Shown: piece by piece, positions 14,555 to 49,244 of the stretch | Position numbering within the stretch: position 1 is the stretch's first letter | Layout of the letters: the number at the start of each line of letters is the position of its first letter | Origin: Gonapodya sp. JEL0774 | Taxonomy: Eukaryota | Direction of reading: 5' to 3' | Length of the DNA stretch: 64,000 nt | Assembly: GCA_027604505.1 (NCBI GenBank) | Contig: JADIIX010000037.1 | Location: 1 to 64,000, forward strand | Translations under genes and position numbers: made by a program | The notes under the pieces: generated by a model | The model's input: only the letters and a program-made list of their open reading frames with translations | Databases searched by the model: none | What the model was told of the DNA's origin: nothing

Positions 14555-17308
14555 ATGGGCAAGAAGTCCAAAAGATTCATCGATCGTCGGACTGCACGTC
14601 ATTACAAGGTTGTCCATCGATCACAGCGAGATCCTGCCCTCGCGGATGACAGCGCTTCACGATTCGTGCTTTTGGAAACTAATGTTTCACCGAATCTCGC
14701 TCGAGTAAGTTCTTCCACAGATTTTGGCCCTCGAAGTCAATTTTCGATCAGAGAAAAGGCGGATATGAGGGCGTGCGCTGCTCGAACTGACGTACAGTGT
14801 GCTTCTTCCCAGAAACAGAAGTTGAATGGTGTGAATGCTTCAGAAACTTTCGGTCACAATGAACCACAGGACTTCGAAGAAGATGGGCATAGACTTATTG
14901 TTAGGCCTGATGGTCGAGGTGTTGACAGAGGTCCAGTGGAAGACGATACGGACGATGATGGATTGGAGGATGAGTTCAGTGGTGGAGAGGACGAGGCATC
15001 TGACAACGGCAGTCGATTCGATGATGCGGAAGAAGAGGATGATATCGAAGAAGAGGATGATATCGAAACCAGGCGCTGTGTCGACTCCGCGGCACCGGAG
15101 CACCAGTTGAACAATTTGGTGAAGAAGGTTGAGCTTCCGCGCGGTTGGTACATTCCGAACACAGTAAAGGTTGAGATACACTGCGATTGACACGTTTTGC
15201 TGTTGTAGCTGGAGCATCAACAGAACAATCTTCTCACAAAGGAGACACTCGGCGTGATGTGGGTAACGTCGGCTCCGCGGCCTTGCATGGTATCTTCTTT
15301 CCGGATCTTGATTATGACTACACTCGCCACCTACGACCGATTGGTATGGAACCTGGAGGTGTGTTTTTGCCACGGAAGCTGACACAAGTGGAAGTGAAGG
15401 CTGAAGAGAAAGAGCGGGGCAAAGTGCGGTTCAAGGACGAGGTGCCGTCTGAGGCTTTGCCCTCAAATTGGGAGGAGGAGATCGGAATGCTTAATCGTGG
15501 AGCGCCTGGAGAAGCAGATCCAATTTTGGCGGATCCGCGTGTGCGAGAGGCGCTGTACGCGCTCGAAGATGAGGCGTATGTTGTTCGCACGATTGTACCA
15601 CGAAGAACCCAGAAGCGAACCACAGCTAGTGGGGTGGACTCCGTACCAGCTTTGCATGTGGTTGATGCGGTGGCCGAGAAAGGGGACGTTCCGAGGCAAC
15701 TTGACTTTGATATTGATGATGAGGATGACCTCGCAGCCGCTGCCGACAACGAGGATGAAGCTGAGTTCGATGAAATGCTGCGACAGCTTGACGAAGAAGG
15801 CTCCCACTGTGAGAACGGAGAGGATGATGATGTTGCTGGATGGTTCGATGAACGAGATCCGAGATATGAGGACGTTGATGGTGAAGGTGACCGTCAAACC
15901 GACTGGCTCCGGGAATTCGGGAAATACAAGCGTGCAGTAGCTGCGGGAACTGTGACTGCTGGCCCATCTCAGGGCGAAAGTGATTCTGGCGGACCGGAAC
16001 ACGGTGATTCTTCGGGCGATGACGAAGCGTCAGACGCGAAGTCTGCTCACAGGCCACGATATTCGCGTCCGGGCACTCGGACGCTCGACGACCTTCGCTC
16101 TGTTGGCACAGGCCTGAGCATGACGAGTGCAGCAGTCGAAAGAACACGGTGGTTAAGAGATGTTGACGAGAAATTCGATAAGGTGAGCCCCCCGTATAGA
16201 TGTGATTTGGCAAGGATTACGTTGAGCACCGAACCGGACCGTGTTCACCACCTTTGTCGCACCTGTGCTTCGCTCTGTCCTTCCACGTGTTAAATCCACT
16301 GAACACTGAATGACATTTCCAATACCATTACTTGCACTTTATTGATATCACATTTTCGGACTACCTGAATAGATTTTGGACGATTATGATGACCGCCAGG
16401 TCGGCGAGCTCGATCCTCGAGGTATTCGAGGCATTTTCAGTGACAAACCGGCTCCACCTCCAGCTTTGGGGCTTTGTGAACCAAACACGACTGTTGTAGA
16501 TGCCGGTGAGGCTGATGACAGCGATTGGGAGGACGAGTGCAATCAAGATGCGGGTAGTGATGTTGGAGAGGGCAATCTCGGACAGACAACCCCGCTACCC
16601 CCCAGCATTGATCGTGTACTCGACGAGTTTCTTGCCATGGAATCATCGACTACTGCGAACCGCCGCGGTGCAGAGAAGACCGGTGACTCGTTTCGTGCGG
16701 CCGCAGCTGAGCAACTGGAGGCAGTGCGAGCGGATCTCCGAGGCTCTTTGCTGCTTGCTGACATACAGAGTGCTGTAATTGCGGAGGAGCCTTATGCAGA
16801 GGAAGTCTTCGTCGACGAGCGGTCAGATGTGGAATCAGATGGTTCCCGCGGTCGCTGGGATGTACAGACTGCTCTCACGGCGTACACCAATATTTACAAT
16901 CGGCCGACTGTGGTGAGGGAAGGTGCTGCGCCTAGAAAGAAACGTGGCTTGGATGGCCTCGAGGGAGAGCGCGTCGTCGTGAGCGGCCGAATTGCAGTGG
17001 TGGAGGTGGTGGAGGTAGATCCCCGAACTGGAATGCCAGTTGTCGCTGGCACGATGAAAAGCGGGGGTCGTTTGGAATCGCAAACGAATACCTCGGTTGC
17101 GCCAGCCCCAGATACGGTCACCCAGGATTCGAGTGAGCCTGAACAACCGAATCGGCTTCTACTTCCCCCAAGAATGAAGGAAGAAACGGCAGAAGAAAAG
17201 CGTGCAAGGAAGGAAGCGGTCAAATTGATTAAACGAGAGAGGAGGGAGGAGAAAAAAGCTTCAAAGGAAGCATGGGGGAGGGAGCGGAGACGGGCTGGGC
17301 AACGTTGA
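14555..17308 (+). CDS. LTV1: LTV1 40S ribosome biogenesis factor, multi-exon
   Basis: N-terminal KRFIDRRTARHYKVVHRSQRDP; GIFFPDLDYDYTRHLRPIG; SMTSA; WDVQTALTAYTNIYNRP; ETAEEKRARKEAVK. Confidence 0.93.
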
Positions 17309-23869: not shown

Positions 23870-24819
23870 ATGCCGGACGAACCACCAGACACACTACCCT
23901 GGCCTCAACGCCAGCAGATGCTCTCTACGATTGCGATGCCTCCCCTCTCATATCTGGCAGATATCGAGCTCACTGATCACCTGTCCTTGACCTCTTCCAC
24001 AACCTTTAAAGCTGGGGAGCTTTGGGTCGAGCGGCCCTGCGTGATCATGGTCGTCAGACGACCTGGATGATCCTTGTGCAGGGGTGAGCATCGTGATCGG
24101 CTGTGTCTTTCCGACTATGTGTCCAACTCCCTTCCGAATGCACCGCGCTCCTCTTTCCGACGTATTTTGTATTTGCCCTCTTGTAGAGGAGGCTCTTGGC
24201 CTTGCCTCGAAGCGAGACGAGCTCTCCCGCATGGGTGTTGACATGTTCGCTGTGGTGCATGAGGAGTTGAATTCGCGAGATTTCAACGAGAAGTATTGGA
24301 AAGGAAATCTTTTCTTGGATTCTGACAAAGGTTCGTGACTCAACGGTCTACTGACACTGTCGGTAAGTACAATGGCCACTTACTCTCGATTTCGAATGAA
24401 GGTTTCTACAGAGGCATTGGATATCCAAACCTGTACTGGGGCAGCATGTCAGACCTGAATCTCCAAGAAGTAAAGGATAATGGAGCTCGCGCAGCCCAGA
24501 AGGGCGTACCGATGAACTACGAAGGACAGGGTCTGTGAGTGAGCGTTCTCGGTTGTTTGCTGCGCTGTTAGATATCTCACACGATTGAATGGCTGCATGC
24601 AAGAATCATGGGCGGATTATTCGTAGTTTCTCGTCAAGGTATCCACTACCGCTTTATCGAGCGGATTTTTGGTGCACACGCTCCCCTAGAAGGTGGGTTC
24701 CAGTGTGGAAGTCGCCACATTCCCGTTTTCCCCCCATTCTTACCTGCACTATGACCGAAACAGAGGTCATGGAGGCTGCGAAGGTTGCCGTGAACGCACT
24801 GGGCCAGCCGCGCATATGA
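23870..24819 (+). CDS. SELENOU: Selenoprotein U (PRXL2A/FAM213A, AhpC-TSA_2 family) with in-frame TGA read as Sec
   Basis: Exons 23870-24083, 24187-24330, 24402-24534, 24604-24692 and 24764-24819, all GT-AG. They give ...FKAGELWVERPCVIMVVRRPG(U)SLCREEALGLASKRDELSRMGVDMFAVVHE...LFLDSDKGFYRGIG...NYEGQGLIMGGLFVV...GIHYRFIERIFGAHAPLEEVMEAAK..., with TGA at 24068-24070. The start codon is tentative. Confidence 0.92.
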
Positions 24820-24880
24820 ACGCGCCGAGCGTCCCAGTGACGACGAAGTTTCTCTTGTTTCCATATCACTGTCCTATCCT

Positions 24881-24956
24881 TACGTATGAAGACCGTCAGC
24901 TGGAAAAATGTACTGCCCTTTTTCTGTGGTGGACAGGCGGACAAGTCTGAGATGCA
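24881..24956 (+). promoter_or_regulatory. SECIS element (type II-like) in the SelenoU 3' UTR
   Basis: ATGAA at 24886-24890, a 13-nt helix arm, AAAAA at 24904-24908, an apical mini-stem (TGT-ACTGC / GTGGT..ACA), and a return arm ending GTC-TGAG at 24945-24951 that completes the GA quartet. Confidence 0.8.
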
Positions 24957-25395
24957 AACTTTAGCTTGAGTTTGTCAAGGAACAGTGACGGTGATAAGGC
25001 ATTCAGGGGGTTTCTATAAGCAATATATAAGAATGCAAAGACGCCAACGATGATGCACTCATGAAATCTTGGTGTTGGGAACCTACACATATTCGCCATC
25101 TTCGCTGTGTGAAATCAGGCAGCCGGAGGGAGATTACCACATCTTGAACACCCGTCTTATTCCGCCAAAAGCAATTACCAAGTCAATTGAGAGTGAGTGA
25201 GTAGATGAGATGCGCTCATTGGCAGGGATCGATCTGCTGTGTCGGTTCATGATGAAGACATTCTGATTCCACCCATCTGGTCACATTCCTCCCTCTCACG
25301 CCATCACCATCATGCAGCTACATCATCTTTCTACTGGGATCTGCATCCACCTATTTTGCTCTCCTCCTCGGTTGTAAAGTCTCTCGGGGTTGAAG

Positions 25396-28300
25396 ATGCC
25401 AGAGCTGCGACGTCCCGTACCTCGGCAGCTCCCACAGTACTCATTCAACACTGTGCCTACAGAGCAAAGGCAGTTTGAAGTGCCAAGCTTCGATGGCCAG
25501 ACTGGCTATCCTGTCTCGAATTCTCACCCACCGCAATCAGACAAACCGGGAGCAATTCATAACCACCAGACAGCACCTAATCCCTCACAACAGCCCGGTC
25601 AGGAGGCAGCGAGGACGGCACCCAACCTCGATCAATCTTATAATCACCAGCAACAGCAATCTCATGCGCCATCTTCGCAACAGCATCAACCCATCTACAC
25701 ATTCGCAGCAGGGCCGGGTCAACCCATCTACGGCCCGCAACAGCATATGCAGTTCTTAAGTCCGTATGGTGGTCCCAACATGCCATCAAGTGGTCAGCCG
25801 ATGCCAGTTCAGATTGTCATGCCCCAGTACGTCTCCCTACCACCAAATCCTCATAACGGTCCTTCCGCTGCTTCCGATCAGTCCACATCAGGTGTTGGCA
25901 ACAGCACGAGTGGGCATTCGCCAGCACCTGGAGTGTCTCACGGGGAGCATCCTTCCCAACATACTATTGAACACTCTTACCAGCGACACCCCTCGTCCCC
26001 TTCGCCTACACAACACAGAATGCATTCTTCGTCTAGTCCCACTACCTACCTTCGCTCGCAGCTCACAAATCTTGAGACCGATCTTGACCACTCTGTGCAT
26101 ACCATCATTACTGCACTCCGTGACCGTGTCATCGAACTGGAGGCACAGCAGCTCAATTCTACTTTCGAGGTCCAGAAACTCTCTAGGGTATCAACTCAGA
26201 AGGAGATTATCCTTCAGGAAACTACAAAGAAAATCGTTGAACTCGAGAAGGAGCGTCGTCGGTCCGAGTCGCAGTTCAGCCAAGTCCGCGAGCGCACCCA
26301 TCAGGAACTTGCGGAGCGAGATCACCGAATTCTCCATCTGGAAGAGAAACTCCGTAACGCTGAGGCTGCCGCAGCTTCACTAGAACAGACGCTCAAGACT
26401 CGTGAAGGTATCGCTGAGGAAGCGCAGAGCGCTGCTCGAACCGCAACGGAGCGGGGCCAGGCTGTCGCCACCCTTACAGCAACACTTGAGTCTCGACAAG
26501 CAAAACTCCACAAACTTGCGCGTGCTGTCAAGTCTCTCAAGATCTCTCTTCGGACGGAGAAAGAAGCTTCCGGACAGCGCGAGCGCGCACTGGAGGATCA
26601 GCGGGATCGTGTCAACCAGCGATATATCCGCGCATGTGAGAAGGTGGCAAGCCTGGAAGGCACAGTGCAGGATCGAGATACTGTTATTGCGCAGCGGGAG
26701 CGGGCAATTCAAGAAGCAAACACCCGAATCACCGCGTTCCAAACACAGCTCCAGCAGAATGAAGTGTGCATGACAGATCTCAAGAAGGCTTTCACTGAGG
26801 CCGTGGGAACTCTGGCAGAGCGCAAGAGGGCCATTAAAGATCTCCAGCGGCAACTTGAGGAGTCTGCAAGACGTCTTGCAGAGAAGGATGTGGTTGTAGC
26901 TGAGGCGAATAAACTGGCGTCAGAAAGGGCCGATCAAGTGACCGATATCTCCAAGAGACTTGCTGAAGTTGAGCTCGCCAACGGGGAGTTCATGGATAAA
27001 AATGTAGCTCTTGAGCATGAGGTGGAGAACCTAAAGGATGCGATCAGAGAAGTCGCGAAGGATGGAAACGTTGAATCTCAGGCTGAGGTCATTCGAGACG
27101 CTAGCCAAGTTGCTGATGCTGTAGCGCAGGGAGAGGATCAGCAGGAGTCTCAACCCATTGCGAACCGTGCTACACCATCTCGCCAACCAACCGAACGCGA
27201 TATCCTTCCACTCTCTCAGTCCCGACCACAGAGCCCTAATTGGTGGACAGAGACGAAACCCGTCCAGTCTCCATCCAGTGCGACAACAGCTGTCGGTTTG
27301 TCACCGTCACGTTCATCCCGGGCGGCATCACCTAGCGGCCCCGACCAGACGGACTATATCGTCAAGTCGTCCGACATGAACGAGATCGCGGAATCGGTCG
27401 ATTCTGCCAAAGTCGATCAAGTCCGGAACCTTGAACGAAAGTATGCTGAGCTAGAAACTCGATCTAACGCTCAGATTGCTCTAAAAACCTCCGAGGTTAA
27501 CGCACTTGAGGCTCGGGTGAAGGAACTGAAGAAAGAGCTTTCAGATGCCCTCAAAAAGGTTGCTCTGTCTTCTAGCGAGTCTCGGGGTTCGATTGAGCAG
27601 CGTAACGTGCCCCTGCAGGCGGAGGTCGCCACGCCAAGTGCACCCGCTGTGAACGTCGCTAAGACCGATGCGGCTGCCGACGACGATCGTCATATGCTTC
27701 AAGAAATCGTTAAGTCTCTTGAGTCTGCCCTGCGTGTTGCGCAGGCTGAGATCCAGGCAATGAATGCTGAGCACGCTGAAGTAATCGCGGACGCGGATAA
27801 GGAGCTTGGTGATTACAGGCGCAAATGCGAAGAATACAAAAACGTGTGTGATGAGTACAAGAAAGTATGCGAGGAGTTGAATGGAAGGGTAGCAGATTTG
27901 GAGCAAGCACTTGCCAAGGAAAGGGCCTCACTTGGTTCGGGTGGCGACCGGTGAGCAATATTTTGTTGTCACAATCTCGCTACTTCGAACTGTTAAATGT
28001 TGTCACTTTCAACAGGGCTTCTTCTCGCAGCAACTCGACCACATCAACGAGTGCTGCCGCAATGCAATTACAAACAGATCAACTGAAAAGGGCAAAATTG
28101 CGGATCGTGGAACTGGAAAAGGCACTTTCTGATTTGTCACGAGACGACGCCGTGAGTCGCAATGCTGTAAGCTTGCGTGAACTTTCCTCATGATTGAATC
28201 CGCAGACAAAGAAGATCCTAGTGAAAAGCGACGAACTCGAAAAGAAAATATCCGAATTGCAAACGAAACTTCGTGAAGCTGCCGAAACTGTCTCAGTGAG

Positions 28301-29285
28301 TAGTGGGTCGGTGGTATGTGTAAAGCCAGTGACGCAAACACTTCGTCTTTTACTGAAGCGCCGCGACAAAGCACTGCAAGAACTCACGGAGACTGCAGAG
28401 TTACGTTTGAAGGAGGTTGCTGCGATCACAGCACGCCTTGCATACGCCGAGGAAGTCATACAGGACAGGGAAGCTGCCATTGACGAGCGCGATAAGGTTC
28501 TGAGTGAACTTAATTCTCGCATTGAGTCCGGTGGTGGAGATGCGTCCACTGAGCTTGCCACCGCGAAGCGTCTCGCAGAACTCGAGAATGCTATTGCAGA
28601 ACGAGATTCAAAGCTTGCTGATCTCAGCAGAAGGCTCTCCGAGACTGACCATTTCCAAGGCCAGGATTCCCAAATTTCTAATGTCAATCTGGAAGCTGCC
28701 ATTGGAGAGACGCAGAAGATTCTTGTGGAGCTCGCCCGAGCGAAGCAAGAAGCATCCACCGAAGTCGCCAAGATCAAAGCTGAGGCATCGAAACTGTCTC
28801 TTGAGCGGGATCGCAAAATCTCCGCTCTGGAAAGGAATGTCAACAGCCTCGAGAGGGACTCCAATGAACGAGAACGCGAGCTGGGCGAACAGATGCGGAT
28901 TAGCGCCGATAACAAAAAGCTCGAAGCTATTCGTAATGAGACAGTGGGAGCCATGTCTCGCCGCATTGTGGACATTTCTCGCGTCCTCGCAGGCCAGGAA
29001 CTCCCAACGCCACTCACGCCGACCAATCCCGCACAGTGGCAGGCAATTTCAAGCACCAGTCCGGAGCTTGCCAAATTGGTGTCCGGCGTAGTGGAACTTG
29101 AGAACACGTTGCAGGCAACGGCGGACGCGAATCGCAGCGGAATGCACGCAAGGGAAGGATCCCAAGGTTCCATCACCTCTATTCAAGTTGGGCCAGATGG
29201 AGCTCCAGTGAAAAAGAGAAGGCCTTCATTCTTTAAAAAGCTATCCTCTGCGTTCAAGAAGAAGGAAGGAGAGACTGGTGAATAA
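25396..29285 (+). CDS. Large coiled-coil protein of unknown function, multi-exon
   Basis: 854-aa and 363-aa open frames with a Q/P/S-rich N-terminus and long heptad-like E/K/R/L/A stretches. Basic C-terminus KKRRPSFFKKLSSAFKKK. Confidence 0.8.
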
Positions 29286-32085: not shown

Positions 32086-32929
32086 CAGCGAAGAAGGGTG
32101 GATGTTTTCAGATTCGGAATTGGTAGGAACAGAACCACGTCCGAAACAGCTGGGAAAGCAATCACGAACAAGATCAGGAACTCCATCAAGATACATAAAA
32201 CCAATCGCACAAATCTTCCACTTTCTCATGTCGCCATCCCAGGCGTTCCCAGTTCCCGAGGATCCTCACGCAACCAACACCTTCGCACATCAAAGTCAAG
32301 CACTTACCCCACACCTTGCCCCGCCGAATGGACTACACAGGCTTCCAGGAGAAATATGACTCCAAAATTTTTTCAAGAAGTCTTTAGGGGAAGGAAACGG
32401 TATGCTGCAATCTTGTGGACACAACCACCTTATATGACACATTCATCAATCAAGATTCGCCTTCATAAATTTTCATCTTAGTACATATCGCCTTCAATCG
32501 CAATCACTTATGTACACATAGAGTTTTAAGAAAGGGAGAAAGACGTCATATCTCGCTCAAAATACGTTGAGACTGGCCTAAATGGAGCTTCTTTCTATAG
32601 GAGTACTACGTGGATCTTGTATCTTGTGATAAGTTCCTCCAACGGATGCACAGAATCATCAACTCTGTTTGCGCTGGCCACCGCGGGCTTTTATGCAATG
32701 ATGGAGTCTGTGATGTTTATTATTTCCTGGTCATAATAGAGAAATCTGCAAATTTTTAGAGAAACTCCGCAGAGCCAAAGCTTGCATGCATCAAGAGGTG
32801 CTAAGGTCGTCATTTGTCGCCGTGTCGGCCTATGGGGTGGTTGGTTCCGGCAGCTCCTGCCAAAAGTATTCACCGATCGCACGTTGATTTGCACACGTTG
32901 AACGGAGCATACTGTAAATACCATCATCG

Positions 32930-35398
32930 ATGGACGGACTGCGGAAAGCGACAGTGAACATTGTAGCAGGGCGGGGAACCGGAGGTCTCAGATTCGACCC
33001 AGTGGGACCAACTGCCACGGCGAACCCGCTTTCGGGGTCTCCCATGTCTTCATTTTCGTCATTATCTTTGGCGTCTTTAAAGAGCCGGCATGTGCATAGG
33101 AGCTCAGGACGCTCGCCGCGGCATATTTCCTCGTCTGCAGCAACTCGTGCTCATCCAGGAGATCCCCTCTCGCGAACATTGCTTGCCCTTACACCACACT
33201 CGACTAATACTCAACACCATGGTGCTCATGAGCACCACCATCATCATCTTCACAACGCCCATCAGCACCGCCATCACGCCCGTCCTCCCCCCTCTCGGTT
33301 CTACGCACCACCGCAGGAATCTCCGCCACGATCATTAAAACACCAGTCGGCATTGGCTCCAGTCTCCACATCTGCTAGTCCATCAACAAACTTTCAACAT
33401 CACGAACTCCCTCGCCTCTCCAACACTCATTTCCCCGGAACCACCCCTACGAGGCCTTCGTCACCGAGCACAATATCCTCCTTGGATGAATGGCCCTCTT
33501 TGGACAATTGGTCTCCGTTGTCGCAACCCCATTCAACCCCCTCAAAATCACCTTCGAGTGAACCACAGGGAGCAGCATCCTCACTACTTGAAATTCGACC
33601 CCCGATCCTCCCCCCAGTCAACCCTACCGACCCCGACCCGACCCTCCTCTCTCGCACGTTTTACCGGCGCGCCCTTCCTCCCCAGCTTACCTCATTCACT
33701 TCCACTCACGGCAAGCGCCTTTTCCGTGAAGCTCTTCTCGATGGACATGCTGAATCCTACTTTTCTCTGGTTGGAAACTTCACTTCCCAAAGCCATCCAG
33801 CGCTCTGCGGGCTTGGAAGTCTTGCCATGGTTTTGAATGCTTTGGAAGTGGATCCGAAGAGGAGGTGGAAAGGTGTTTGGAGGTGGTGGAGTGACGAAAT
33901 GTTGGAGGTCCGTAAGACGTGTTGCTGGTGTTGTCGTGGGGTATTTGTTATGGGCACACACATCAAGGTCCAAGGAACAAACAAAAATCATTCAAAAGCT
34001 TCACTTGTGATGGCCGATGAGCGCTATAACTCTTTGGCGGTCTCTTTTCTCTTTCCGAACCGCTTTGTTAACGACCCCATATCTTTCTCACCACGACCCT
34101 TCTCACAATCCCAGCTCTGCACACCGATTTCAGAAATTCAACGCCGCGGTGTGACCTTTCGAGACTTCGCGTGTATTGCCCGAAACAACGGTCTTAAGTA
34201 AGTGTCCGCTCGTGTTCACACGGCGACATTCCGTACTCAGCTTCCCATGTTCATTTCCGACTCTGGCGGATAGTGTCCTCGCTAAACCTGGTGACACGAC
34301 TTCATATGCAGAGTTCATGAAGGATATTGAACTCTCAGCGACATCACCAGATGTTCATCTAGTGGTGTCCTTCTCGCGAAAGGCCATGGGATGCACAGGC
34401 GACGGCCACTTTTCTCCGATAGGAGCGTACCACAGGGGGGAGGACAAGGCACTAGTATTGGATGTGGCTAGATTCAAGGTGAGTCCCCACTGGAAGTTTC
34501 CAGAAGTGTGAATATTGCCACAGATGCTCCATGTATTTCACAGTACCCGTCCTACTTTGCCTCCACCAAAGAACTCTATGAAGCCATGAAACCGGTGGAC
34601 AAAGAAACTGGTCTCTCTCGCGGTTATTTCCTCCTTCGCCGTGGGACTCGTAAACACGCGCCACTTTGCAAGGTTGCAGTACATCCATCTGCTAATCGGG
34701 CAGACTTGTCCACTCTCCTTACTCGCTCTGTACCCTCTTATCTTGCCTCATTGGTACCACGAACACTTGAAGACGTGGTGAGGGCGGTTTTAGCAGCAAT
34801 TCCGGACGATTACCGTTTTCTAGTGAGCATGCAGGCACCCGGAGTGGATTTAGCTGGCGGGGACGAGCAGAGGAAGGGAGTACTCGAGAGACATAAAAGA
34901 ATGGTGGATGAATTGGTTGAAGAGGCGAGAAATAATGGGATGTTTCAAGTAGTGGCAAATGTAGCAGGTGGTGGGATGATGTTCAATGACCGACACGGGA
35001 AAGGGGAAGGCATGGACACTGCTGGAGACAGCACATTCACTCCGCAAGTCGAGCAGGCTTTCTGCTCCCATGGTGCGCCACAGGTATGCTGCTCGTGGTG
35101 TGTCGACTTTTCGCAAGGCGCCTACAAGGAGGGTAACAATCGCGCGTACGTGGGCTCCGCTGCACGAGACCGACGCGTGGCACTCGCCACTATTTTTATG
35201 CTCGCATCACCTCGCGATATGTATCAAAGTCTGCCGGCGCATCTTTCTGATCAGCTGGAGGAATTCCGCCGGTCCGTGGAGACCGGTGGGAGGGGTGGAA
35301 GGCTGTTGAGGGAGGAGGTGAGGAGAGCTCAGGTGGAACTTGCAGCATTGATGAACGAAGGCTGCCAGTGTCGGCAGGAAGATGCTCGGTCAGCATGA
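32930..35398 (+). CDS. PCS1: Phytochelatin synthase, multi-exon
   Basis: FYRRALP, QSHPALCGLGSLAMVLNALEVDPKRRWKGVWRWW, GDGHFSPIGAYH, LDVARFK|YP, DKETGLSRGY. The Cys-His-Asp triad is intact. Start may instead be the ATG at ~33044. Confidence 0.95.
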
Positions 35399-42485: not shown

Positions 42486-44456
42486 TCATTCGTCATTCCC
42501 TGTCCCCGCCTGCACCTTCTTCTTCTTTTTCGACTTCTCCGACTTATCCGACGCATCGCTCTTCTCCGAATTCCCTTTTTTGACCTTTTCCGCTTTGTCA
42601 GATGGTTCTCCCTTCTCGGTCTTTCCCGTCTTCGAATCTACTGCTCCGGATGCTGCCGCACCGTCCTTCTTATGCTACAGAGAGCATTGGAGCAAACAGT
42701 GTTAAATGCGAGCAAACGAGAGCGCATAATTCATTGTTAAGTACCTTTTTCTTCTTTCCTTTCCCTTCATCATCTGCCTCTGCCTTCCTCTTCGTCGGTG
42801 CAGGTTTCTCCACGTCCATACCGTCCCCATCGTCATCTATTATGGCGTCCAGAGCAGTCTTCATCGCATCCGCATTGCGCCGAGGTGTGGTGCCCTCCTC
42901 ATAAAACTTAAGACGCTCCTCTACTTGATCCCGGAGAACCTCGCCAAACTTTTGTGTGGGTTTGTCTGTGTTCGGAGTTGAGTCCGGACATCACAATGTC
43001 AGCGACGTGGAAACATCCTTCACTCACCAATGAAGCAGTCTATCCGAGATGCAATGGAGCACTTGTTGGCAAGGAAGCGAGAAATCCGACCCTTGTTCTT
43101 TTGGCCGGCTCGACCGATGAAAGTGGAGTGGTAGATAAGCCCATACTTTGGAGTATTTCCTTTGGTCTTGAGAGCCCTGGACAAGCAAAATGTGGTGTCC
43201 AATATTGAATGGTTCAAGCATACCTCCAAACCGTGCACTTGAATGCTCACCTGAAGAGAGCCTTCTCGGCACCCAAAATTTGTACTGTGGACGCGGGATA
43301 CTTGGAGAGGTTTGTGAGAGAGCCAGCGTGCGAGATGAGCCTGGCACCGACAGACTCGCCGATAAGCGCAGACAAATTGGGCGCCACTTGGTGCATTTTC
43401 GACACCAGGTATGAGTGCAGACTCTTGCGGTACTCCGCAAGGTTCACCACGCGATCGGCAAATTGCTCAATATTTTCCATGTCAGTATCGGCAATGTCAG
43501 TTCCCATGGACGATTTCGCAGCCTCAAGAATTTGTCGGGCTTTGCCCGGTGCGTCGATGGGTGTCGCAGAGGTTGCTAAGAGGTCCTCTAGTGCGGGGAG
43601 GTCTTCCTCCGTGAGGCGGGATTTGTCGCGAATGTGCTTGGCAAGTTTGGCAAAGAGATGATTGTCGGAGACTATTTTTATGAGCTCGGGGAAATGCCAT
43701 GAATACCATTCGCTGTGATGAGTGAGACCCATTGGTCGCCGAAAAGGGATGTATTGAACCTCAATTGAACATCATCCGAAAATGGATAGCGGGGACTACT
43801 CACCGAACTCTCATTGAAAATGTGTTCACGTCCTTGTCCAATTGGTCCAGTAGGGCAATGGCCTGGATAATCATGTTGTCCGATCGATTGACATTGAACT
43901 TGACTTTCGCCCTCGAGTAGCTATGACCCAATCCAAGCTGTGCCCTTTCCAAATCACCATCCTTCAAACCTCCAATAAGCTTATCCGCGTGCAACCGAAT
44001 CCCCCGAATAACCTCGGTCACAACTTCATTCGACTGACAGTCGAACCCAAGCTCCTGCTTGATTGTACCAGCAAGACCCTTTTCGAAAACACCAAGTTGT
44101 ATCTTCGATTTCTTGCCAGGAAGGTTCAGCTCCAGGAAGGATTTCAGATGATCGTTCACGATGCCTGATTGGTGGGGAGCACCGAACACAATTTTCGAAA
44201 GCGTGGCAGGTGAAAACGATGCCATCTCTACCTCGACCATTAATAGAAACCACTCACCCTCAGATACGTCGTTTATGTTTTCGAGCGCGTGGGCAGCGCT
44301 CTTGAAGGGAGCAAAGCTCTTGAGCTTCACATAACGACCAAATCGCGCGAGGTCCTTGACAGCCTCCTGAACCTCATCAAGCTCCATGCCGACTTCATCT
44401 CCAGCAACACGCTCGAACAGAGCGTACCCCGACGCCGTTTCGTAGAGTACGAACAT
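42486..44456 (-). CDS. NOP56: Nucleolar protein 56 (box C/D snoRNP), multi-exon
   Basis: [84 protein letters not shown], Lys-rich tail. Confidence 0.96.
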
Positions 44457-47700: not shown

Positions 47701-49244
47701 CTATTCACAATTCGAAGATGACGCTAGTTTCTCCGTGGACAACTTCTCCATGTTTGTGCGCTTTGTCTTCTTGCTAGAAGGAGACCGGTTCTCCACATCA
47801 CCGTCATCTTCGATGCGGTTACTAAAGGCTTTAAGGTCGGCCGTAAATAGAACCTGGTGGCAGAAGAGTCAAGCGGGGAATCACAAACAGTTTACTAATC
47901 AACTTTGGGCACCTCTGTCGGGCTGATGCACATTTCATACCCACGGAATGAGCCCAGCCACAGTGATCCCCATGCAACTTTCGAAAATGTTGCTGTATTT
48001 GCTTGTATACCTTACTGGTTAAGGTCTTTGGCGTTTTCCCGGGGGAGTTTACGACTTTTGTAGTTCCCTTCCTCTTTCGTTTTCCTGGAGAGTATCCATT
48101 TTCGTCTCCTGCTGAGGAACCTTCACCAGTGATTTCATCTATTTCCTCGGCAAGGGTGAAGTTGTAATCTCTGAGTGCGATTTGCCAAACATGACGGTCC
48201 ACAGGGACCGCTTCTGCCTTGTCCAAACTCATGAGTGCGACACAATCAGCAACCTTGGGGCCAACACCTGGAAATTCCAGCAGAGCAGCGATGGTATCAG
48301 AGTAGCTGGAGGTGCGCAGGGAAAGGAGGTAGGATTCTGGGTCTTTGTGGGAAGCAAGTTTGGCGCACGTTTCCGCTACGTATTTGGCTCTGTACCCAAA
48401 GCCTAAGTCTCGAAGGCGAGGTTCAAGGTCAAGCGCGGAAGCCAACTGCGAGATGGTAGGGAACTCGTGGAAAGGTGGCTGGTTGAGGGCCAAATGCGAT
48501 GGAAGGCCGACCAGTGAACCATACTCTCGGCAGAGCGCGTTGACCTGGAGTTTGCACAAACATTATCTTGAGAGTTGTGCACCAATCCCTTTGGACCGAG
48601 GTGATGACTTCACCATCAAGGTAATCCTTGCGACATTATTATTGCTCGTGCAAATGAACGTAATAAGATTCTCGACGGGATGCTGTCGAAGAACTCGAAC
48701 GCCTCGAAACGCGGAATTTGTGGTCCCGAACCGGTGGAAGTTGGTATCTGCCGAAGACCATTTCTTGTAGAGCTCTGAGAGCGAGCATTCAAGTTGGAAA
48801 TAGTCTCGCAAGTAGGTACGAGCCTCGTTTGGATCAGACACCAGAGAATTTTGGGGATGGTAAGTTCGATATAAGACGTCTGTATCTGCGATATCAACGT
48901 TTCTATCGGAAAGCACGGATCCGTACTCGACTCAACCGCCTCTCACCAGTCTGTTTCAAAGACACAAGCTTTCCCTCCAGTGAATTTGTCCTTTAGTCCA
49001 TAGTCGAACATAAACGCATAAGAAATTCATTGAAGAATCAGCGCATCAATGCAAGTGTTTCCATTAATGGTGTCGAGAATTATGCAGACCATTCGTAGTC
49101 GCCAGTTTTACGCCATCGAAAGCTCTGTGCGCCTTGGAGCGTCGTATCGAGACGCAGTTCTTCGGGGAGAACATTCAGTGAAGCCCAGGGGCTCGGATAC
49201 AGAACTTCGGGGTTCAAAGCCAATTGAGAGGGTTGAGAGGACAT
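47701..49244 (-). CDS. OGG1: 8-oxoguanine DNA glycosylase, multi-exon
   Basis: ELRLDTTLQGAQSFRW, GVRVLRQHPVENLITFICTSNNNVARI, LGFGYRAKY, HhH-GPD PGVGPKVADCVALMSLDK..VPVDRHVW, GWAHS|VLF. Confidence 0.95.

What the first reader, a model, noticed from the sequence alone, without database searches (positions are those of the whole stretch)
23870..24819. Fungal selenoprotein U: TGA at the redox-active position of a UxxC motif
Seen: the ORF track stops at TGA 24068-24070, but the frame continues TCC TTG TGC AGG G|gt..ag|AG GAG, giving RRPG*SLCREEA. Four further exons splice cleanly in frame with no other lesion. Known: PRXL2A/FAM213A has RRPGCxxCREEA, and SelenoU carries Sec at that first Cys. Selenocysteine was long thought absent from fungi and has been reported in only a few early-branching species, including Gonapodya prolifera (Mariotti et al. 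2019). Inference: this is an intact selenoprotein gene that standard annotation would truncate or mis-splice, and the genome should encode a full Sec pathway.
Basis: partly seen in the sequence, partly recalled or inferred. Interest (0 to 1): 0.92.

Follow-up and report, generated by a model that had tools for sequence, protein, structure and literature searches.

The report
Selenoprotein U gene in a water-mould fungus
A Gonapodya-like aquatic fungus carries an otherwise intact five-exon antioxidant-type gene with a TGA 'stop' exactly at its first catalytic cysteine position, likely read as selenocysteine, while the closest named relative has plain cysteine there; selenium-using fungi are already known, so this is a new member of a known kind.

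Summary
Observation confirmed. Five exons (23870-24819, all GT-AG) give 211 codons with one internal TGA (codon 67, RRPG-U-SLC). The protein is 142/205 identical to a Gonapodya prolifera PRXL2A-like protein that has Cys there, equally before (39/60) and after (103/144) the TGA. The family uses TGA at this site widely (111 of 120 metagenome pattern hits are family members). The nearest unnamed relative begins two codons after the site, a stop-codon signature. A SECIS-like hairpin lies 66 nt after the stop; support for it is moderate (first in the window under one model, not under a second; no Rfam hit). Not tested: reads, expression, Sec machinery in this genome (no genome or runs held). Verdict: about 85% a real selenoprotein U (SELENOU1/PRXL2A-like). 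Fungal selenoproteins, SelenoU included, are published, so 0.92 is too high. What is new in the papers I could read: a Sec SelenoU in Gonapodya, and a Sec/Cys pair within one genus, where the 2018 preprint reported no fungal Sec-to-Cys conversion.

The parts
23870..24083 (+). Exon 1 (ATG to first base of codon 72); holds the RRPG-U-SLC motif
   Evidence: 43/65 identical to P0002
24068..24070 (+). In-frame TGA, codon 67, likely selenocysteine; aligns with Cys61 of P0002 and Cys44 of human PGFS/PRXL2B
24077..24079 (+). TGC, Cys70, second residue of UxxC (likely resolving Cys)
24084..24186 (+). Intron 1, 103 nt, GT..AG; holds the ATG (24138) used by the public model P0124
24187..24330 (+). Exon 2; start of Pfam PF13911 AhpC-TSA_2
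24402..24534 (+). Exon 3
24604..24692 (+). Exon 4
24764..24819 (+). Exon 5, ending in the terminal stop, which is also TGA (24817-24819)
24884..24953 (+). SECIS candidate: AUGA core at 24886, 10-pair helix II, unpaired A-run at 24904-24908, apical mini-stem, GA at 24949-24950
   Evidence: against:
24865..24995 (+). Predicted wider fold: distal helix I (24865-24881 with 24977-24995) and a side hairpin (24954-24975)
   Evidence: -38.5 kcal/mol, z -1.47, 19 of 200 shuffles fold as well; prediction only
25022..25027 (+). AATATA, possible polyadenylation signal
   Evidence: motif match only

Best explanation
This is an intact five-exon PRXL2A/SELENOU1-like gene whose single internal TGA sits at the first cysteine position of the CxxC active site and is likely read as selenocysteine, which would give a 211-residue thioredoxin-fold oxidoreductase with a UxxC motif. 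Shown: gene structure, position of the TGA, family, even conservation on both sides of the TGA. Inferred: after splicing, the hairpin at 24884-24953 (504 nt downstream of the UGA in the mRNA) acts as SECIS and, through SBP2, eEFSec and Sec-tRNA, makes the ribosome insert Sec67. Inferred from the family: the Sec67 selenolate, at the start of the helix after the first core strand, attacks a peroxide or disulfide, Cys70 resolves it to a selenenyl-sulfide, and thioredoxin or glutathione re-reduces it. The protein lacks the hydrophobic N-terminal segment of vertebrate PRXL2A, so it is likely soluble. G. prolifera's closest copy most likely converted Sec to Cys.
For: One internal stop in 211 codons, four GT-AG introns. 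Identity to P0002 39/60 before and 103/144 after the TGA; family HMM built without the Gonapodya rows scores the part after the TGA 156.8 bits against 165.7 for P0002. End branch 0.20 against 0.15 (P0002) and 0.30 (P0125): no marked acceleration. Of 154 relatives, 120 have Cys at this site, 4 Trp and 13 begin exactly two codons later; one of these (P0274) is encoded by a fetched locus with TGA there (L056). The window's sister sequence P0125 (94/80) is one of the 13. Metagenome scan for RRPG-TGA-xxCR: 111 of 120 loci are family members, 89 of 103 on residues after the motif alone. SECIS: only hit between stop and next ORF in 4 of 5 settings; 5 of 600 shuffles give a hit in the base setting; without the AA rule the same scan finds a hit in 37 of 51 control 3' regions against 2 of 51 antisense, 35 of 37 at 35-160 nt from the stop, here 66 nt. 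Model R1 from 16 non-window elements ranks it first in 64 kb, 14.2 bits, E 0.45; E 0.004 in the 581-nt downstream stretch. P0002 model pLDDT 93.5, best fold match human PGFS, E 3.4e-13; C61/C64 align with C44/C47. Neighbour Nop56 is closest to G. prolifera, a fungus with full Sec machinery (10.1101/314781).
Against: The closest named homologue has Cys, so one base change TGC/TGT to TGA could also give this picture. The DNA of P0125 was not seen (one search found none); its start could be a contig edge, and only 1 of 18 start-63 or Trp proteins could be matched to DNA. The SECIS is weak: Rfam gives no SECIS hit (though none in 20 control loci either); my stricter scan missed it because the proximal helix I has only 3 pairs and I relaxed that rule after seeing the candidate; it fails if AA must lie at 11-13; 96-nt fold z +0.91; model R2 (27 elements) gives it 10.1 bits, E 0.057 locally, and does not list it among 13 window hits, where an overlapping 10.5-bit hit ranks sixth; 14.2 bits is below the 15.5-25.4 of the 12 non-training matches listed at E up to 0.5. 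The terminal stop is TGA, seen in only 1 of 53 TGA-bearing relatives. Sec machinery, expression and Sec insertion were not tested.
Confidence: 0.85

Rival explanations
1. Young pseudogene: a Cys codon mutated to TGA recently, too recently for other lesions to show.
For: G. prolifera copy has Cys; one base change suffices; terminal stop TGA is rare among Sec relatives, 1 of 53; SECIS support is mixed.
Against: The stop falls on the one codon of 211 where the family uses TGA; sister sequence P0125 begins two codons after the same site; SECIS-like hairpin at the usual distance.
Confidence: 0.08
2. Assembly or base-calling error: the real codon is TGC or TGT.
For: No reads could be checked; closest named copy has Cys.
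Against: An error at this exact base is unlikely a priori; independent relative P0125 shows the same break point; hairpin downstream.
Confidence: 0.03
3. The TGA is never translated: splicing removes it, or translation starts in intron 1 as in public model P0124, giving a short protein without the active site.
For: P0124 exists as an annotation; 10 frame-keeping introns spanning the TGA are formally possible.
Against: All 10 delete RRPG-x-x-x-C; 9 need a GC donor, the tenth a poor GT donor; exon 1 is as conserved as the rest, with 13 of 13 residues around the TGA identical to P0002.
Confidence: 0.02
4. TGA is read as Cys or Trp, by genome-wide reassignment or leaky read-through, without selenium.
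For: 4 of 154 database relatives show Trp here, most simply an artefact of gene callers using code 4 (inference).
Against: All 4 Trp codons in this gene are TGG and both Cys codons TGC; no TGA in about 500 aligned Nop56 codon positions; the gene itself ends in TGA where P0002 and P0125 end.
Confidence: 0.02

Closest known systems
SELENOU1 / PRXL2A (FAM213A, PAMM), Sec in fish, birds and many protists, Cys in therian mammals
   Same: RRPG-U/C-xx-CREEA motif, PF13911 domain, 38% identity of P0002 to a fish PRXL2A (114 bits), same 27-row clade at 100/99. Per PMC3316567 and 10.1101/2025.05.29.656587 (passages) all Sec-bearing vertebrate SelU are SELENOU1, with at least four Sec-to-Cys conversions in tetrapods.
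   Different: No hydrophobic N-terminal segment (max 19-residue hydropathy 0.95 against 2.24); not inside the animal subclade; strict orthology unproven.
Fungal SelenoU and AhpC selenoproteins of Mariotti et al. (preprint 10.1101/314781)
   Same: TGA aligned to the family's Sec site in an early-diverging fungus; SECIS 40-420 nt after the stop in that study, 66 nt here.
   Different: The preprint lists SelenoU as missing in G. prolifera and reports no Sec-to-Cys conversion in fungi. Here a Gonapodya relative has the TGA form and G. prolifera the Cys form. I could not see its figures, supplements or the 2019 journal version, so I cannot exclude that its G. prolifera 'AhpC' genes are unannotated paralogues of this one.
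G. prolifera KXS16773.1 (P0002)
   Same: 69% identical end to end; one clade at 100/100 with the window and P0125.
   Different: Cys at the site; its DNA, 3' UTR and synteny were not available.
Human prostamide/prostaglandin F synthase (PRXL2B, PDB 9US9/9USA)
   Same: Best fold match (TM 0.70/0.87); U67/C70 correspond to C44/C47.
   Different: RRFG motif, about 30% identity, separate clade; no evidence for the same substrate.

Membership tests
Eukaryotic selenoprotein gene | In-frame TGA aligned to a conserved Cys/Sec, open frame on both sides | tested here: met
Eukaryotic selenoprotein gene | SECIS in the 3' UTR: GA/GA quartet, helix II, usually apical AA (features per PMC3316567) | tested here: inconclusive
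   Candidate 24884-24953 has all three; first under R1, weak under R2, missed by Rfam and by the strict scan; no covariation data
Eukaryotic selenoprotein gene | Genome encodes tRNA-Sec, eEFSec, SBP2, SecS, PSTK, SPS | not testable with these tools
   No genome held; no tRNA in the window; none of 17 long window ORFs hits a Sec-machinery family; present in G. prolifera per 10.1101/314781
Eukaryotic selenoprotein gene | TGA kept in mRNA and Sec incorporated | not testable with these tools
   No run listed
PRXL2/SelenoU family | PF13911 AhpC-TSA_2 above gathering score (27 bits) | tested here: met
   P0124 (window exons 2-5) 64.2 bits; P0002 60.3 bits
PRXL2/SelenoU family | Thioredoxin-like fold with (U/C)xxC at the start of the helix after the first core strand | tested here: met
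   Model of the 69%-identical P0002, not of the window protein itself: pLDDT 93.5, strand 51-55, helix 62-73; best match PGFS
SELENOU1/PRXL2A subfamily | Groups with PRXL2A rather than PRXL2B/C | tested here: inconclusive
   27-row clade with vertebrate PRXL2A 100/99; 114 against 91.7 bits; AU test of the alternative p 0.104; 34 hand-picked rows, no named PRXL2C row
True peroxiredoxin (AhpC/Prx) | PF00578 above gathering score (26 bits) | tested here: not met
   P0002 22.8 bits; fold matches to peroxiredoxins at 11-17% identity only
SelL-related redox protein (NF040769) | Score above 120 bits | tested here: not met
   P0002 47.2 bits

The most novel reading that the evidence does not exclude
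Monoblepharid fungi kept an ancestral Sec-containing SelenoU, and G. prolifera converted it to Cys while keeping its Sec machinery: a Sec-to-Cys conversion inside one fungal genus, with further Cys copies in Glomus, Diversispora, Dimargaris, Tieghemiomyces and Ramicandelaber and a probable hidden Sec copy in Hyaloraphidium. That would overturn the preprint's statement that fungi lose selenoprotein genes rather than convert them, and give a matched Sec/Cys pair plus a fungal SECIS with an unusual three-way base for testing.
Probability: 0.55. Interest if true: 0.55.

Novelty: new member of a known kind. Interest (0 to 1): 0.42.

Why it matters
Few fungi are known to encode selenocysteine (11 genomes of early-diverging fungi in PMC9457484), and only 5 of 16 fungal selenoprotein candidates had a recognisable SECIS in the founding preprint. 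This adds a SelenoU gene and a SECIS candidate from the Gonapodya lineage, corrects a public gene model that drops the active site, and offers a 69%-identical natural Sec/Cys pair for asking what Sec buys in this family and how fungi abandon it.

Tried and rejected
No whole genome held, so no search for Sec machinery. Sequencing runs: none was listed, which is no evidence either way. No tRNA in the window. Rfam: no SECIS in 24700-25400 nor in 20 control loci, 14 of which have a candidate, so the blank says little. First pattern scan and helix-I-strict scan missed the candidate; the strict scan found 5 of 51 controls. The bare RTGA-N14-AAA pattern is at chance level in the window, 28 against 25.3 expected. 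Three early SECIS alignments were unusable. Scan for the contig of P0125: 239 pattern matches, none confirmed. The 88-row careful tree did not finish; a quick tree was read, then a 34-row careful tree. The count of 8 Sec/Cys changes on that tree treats start-63 and Trp rows as Sec and cannot give direction. Earlier scan notes: nothing. The 2019 journal paper was not held; the PMC9457484 supplement was unreadable; bioRxiv supplements are closed. Protein atlas gave no answer. dN/dS and synteny with G. prolifera could not be computed without its DNA. Rejected: global TGA reassignment, splicing out of the TGA, true peroxiredoxin, SelL-related family.

Full report
1. Observation. The sequence at 23870-24819 is as described. 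Five exons (23870-24083, 24187-24330, 24402-24534, 24604-24692, 24764-24819) join through four GT-AG introns of 103, 71, 69 and 71 nt into 636 nt: 211 codons and a stop, with one internal TGA at codon 67, 24068-24070. Exon 2 hits PF13911 weakly on its own.

2. Organism. No genome is held. Nop56 at about 42766-44456 (minus strand) is closest to Gonapodya prolifera among single-copy hits (345 bits; next fungus 298), 90% identical in two intron-free blocks. The window is thus from a Gonapodya-like monoblepharid that is not the G. prolifera reference.

3. Homologues. Exon 1 read with TGA=U finds one protein among 16 candidates, G. prolifera KXS16773.1, P0002. It has Cys at the site and matches the spliced model at 142 of 205 positions, 39/60 before and 103/144 after the TGA. 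Searching with P0002 gave 8 proteins of 881 candidates. P0125, unnamed, from a 972-nt contig, 66-70% identical, begins at LCREEA, two codons after the site. No second G. prolifera protein appeared, but an unannotated paralogue would not.

4. The site is the family's Sec site. A phmmer search of 1.84 billion representatives gave 878 hits; I analysed the best 150 plus the and proteins, 154 rows in all: 120 Cys, 4 Trp, 1 Glu, 1 Ser, 28 not covering the site, of which 13 start exactly two codons after it and 1 one codon after it. One such protein (P0274) is encoded by fetched locus L056, which has TGA there; the other 17 start-shifted or Trp proteins matched no fetched locus. The pattern demands TGA, so it shows that the form is common, not how common. 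A Hyaloraphidium curvatum model (P0193) also starts at MCREEA; Dimargaris, Tieghemiomyces, Ramicandelaber, Glomus and Diversispora copies have Cys.

5. Family placement. P0124 and P0002 pass PF13911 (64.2, 60.3 bits) but P0002 not PF00578 or NF040769. An AlphaFold2 model of P0002 (pLDDT 93.5) matches human PGFS/PRXL2B best (E 3.4e-13), and C61/C64 align with its C44/C47. In a 34-row careful tree the window, P0125 and P0002 form a clade (100/100), window plus P0125 at 94/80, inside a 27-row group with vertebrate PRXL2A (100/99) and apart from 7 PRXL2B-like rows. The AU test did not reject grouping with those 7 (p 0.104). The Gonapodya clade does not group with the other fungal copies, but support there is unstarred. 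Rows were chosen by hand from the hits.

6. SECIS. A hairpin at 24884-24953 has AUGA at 24886, ten pairs stacked on the core, an unpaired A-run 14 nt on, a mini-stem and UGAG at the 3' side. It lies 66 nt after the stop and 504 nt after the UGA in the mRNA, beyond the 51-111 nt minimum cited in PMC3316567. For: sole hit in the 561 nt downstream in 4 of 5 settings; 3 hits in 128 kb and 5 of 600 shuffles in the base setting, 1 hit and 2 of 600 in the tightest; without the AA rule the scan finds a hit in 37 of 51 control 3' regions and 2 of 51 antisense, while 55 of 600 shuffles and 21 window sites also pass. The 51 controls are the loci with at least 130 residues after the TGA and 120 nt after the stop. 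A covariance model from 16 of those elements ranks the candidate first of 16 window hits (14.2 bits, E 0.45; E 0.004 locally). Against: the scan was relaxed after the strict version missed it; it fails with AA at 11-13; fold z is +0.91 for 96 nt and -1.47 for 136 nt; a second model from 27 elements gives 10.1 bits, E 0.057, and does not list it window-wide; Rfam finds nothing, in controls either. I put it at about 70% a real SECIS (judgement).

7. Other escapes from the TGA. Ten frame-keeping introns could span it; all delete the motif and nine need GC donors. All four Trp codons are TGG, both Cys codons TGC, and the aligned Nop56 blocks have no TGA, so no general reassignment is seen. One oddity: the terminal stop is TGA, against 1 of 53 relatives.

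8. Mechanism. Shown: structure, position, family. Inferred from established eukaryotic Sec biology (10.1101/314781, introduction): SECIS, SBP2 and eEFSec recode UGA67. Inferred from the fold and from the CxxC of PAMM/PRXL2A being essential for its antioxidant function (PMC4588419, passage): Sec67 is the attacking residue, Cys70 resolves, thioredoxin or glutathione recycles; this catalytic cycle is recalled general thioredoxin-fold chemistry, not tested. No transmembrane segment, so likely soluble. Direction of change: Sec-to-Cys in G. prolifera is favoured because TGA and start-shifted rows surround the clade and such conversions recur in SELENOU1 (10.1101/2025.05.29.656587, passages); the tree is unrooted and does not prove it.

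9. What is known. 10.1101/314781 (whole text read; no figures or supplements): five Sec-using fungi including G. prolifera; SelenoU found in other Sec fungi but missing in G. prolifera; SECIS in 5 of 16 genes; no Sec-to-Cys conversion seen. The 2019 journal version was not held; PMC10573291 (passages) cites nine species from it, and it may have revised these statements. PMC9457484 (passages and section 7): Sec in 11 genomes of early-diverging fungi; its supplement, which I could not read, may already list this organism as Sec-using. 10.1101/2021.02.26.433065 (passages): two Sec MsrA in G. prolifera. PMC7435645: passages only. Searches for a report of this gene or of a fungal Sec-to-Cys case found none beyond these; the library lacks most subscription papers.

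10. Verdict. Real feature; about 85% a functional selenoprotein U; new member of a known kind. Interest 0.42: unsurprising in kind, useful as a corrected gene, a fungal SECIS candidate and a within-genus Sec/Cys pair.

Noticed in passing
window 24817-24840: The terminal stop is TGA, 66 nt before the SECIS core, with a second in-frame TGA 7 codons on; only 1 of 53 TGA-bearing relatives ends in TGA. Partial recoding would add a short tail.
   Followed up: partly
P0193 (Hyaloraphidium curvatum KAI9016090.1): Annotated protein starts at MCREEA, two codons after the Sec site: probably a second mis-annotated monoblepharid SelenoU; DNA not seen.
   Followed up: partly
P0126, P0127, P0132-P0135: Cys-form PRXL2A-like proteins in Tieghemiomyces, Ramicandelaber, Dimargaris (two), Glomus and Diversispora; bears on the claim that fungi lose rather than convert selenoproteins.
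   Followed up: partly
L001-L080 3' regions: SECIS-like hairpins in 37 of 51 SelU loci, only 7 with unpaired AA at 11-15; Rfam found no SECIS in the 20 loci tested.
   Followed up: partly
window 24084; L015, L032, L038, L044, L071, L102, L105: Intron 1 starts 2 nt upstream of a GT that follows the CRE codons in several genomic relatives, where their reading frames soon break; possible intron sliding or independent gain.
   Followed up: no
window 24954-24975: Predicted side hairpin between the SECIS core and a distal helix I, making a three-way junction.
   Followed up: no
window 32918-35398 +: Phytochelatin synthase gene (PF05023), 8 kb downstream; no evidence of a link.
   Followed up: no
window 42766-44456 -, 47831-48562 -, 15175-16293 +, 25378-29285 +: Nop56, an HhH-GPD DNA glycosylase, an LTV protein and a long coiled-coil-like protein; ordinary neighbours.
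   Followed up: no
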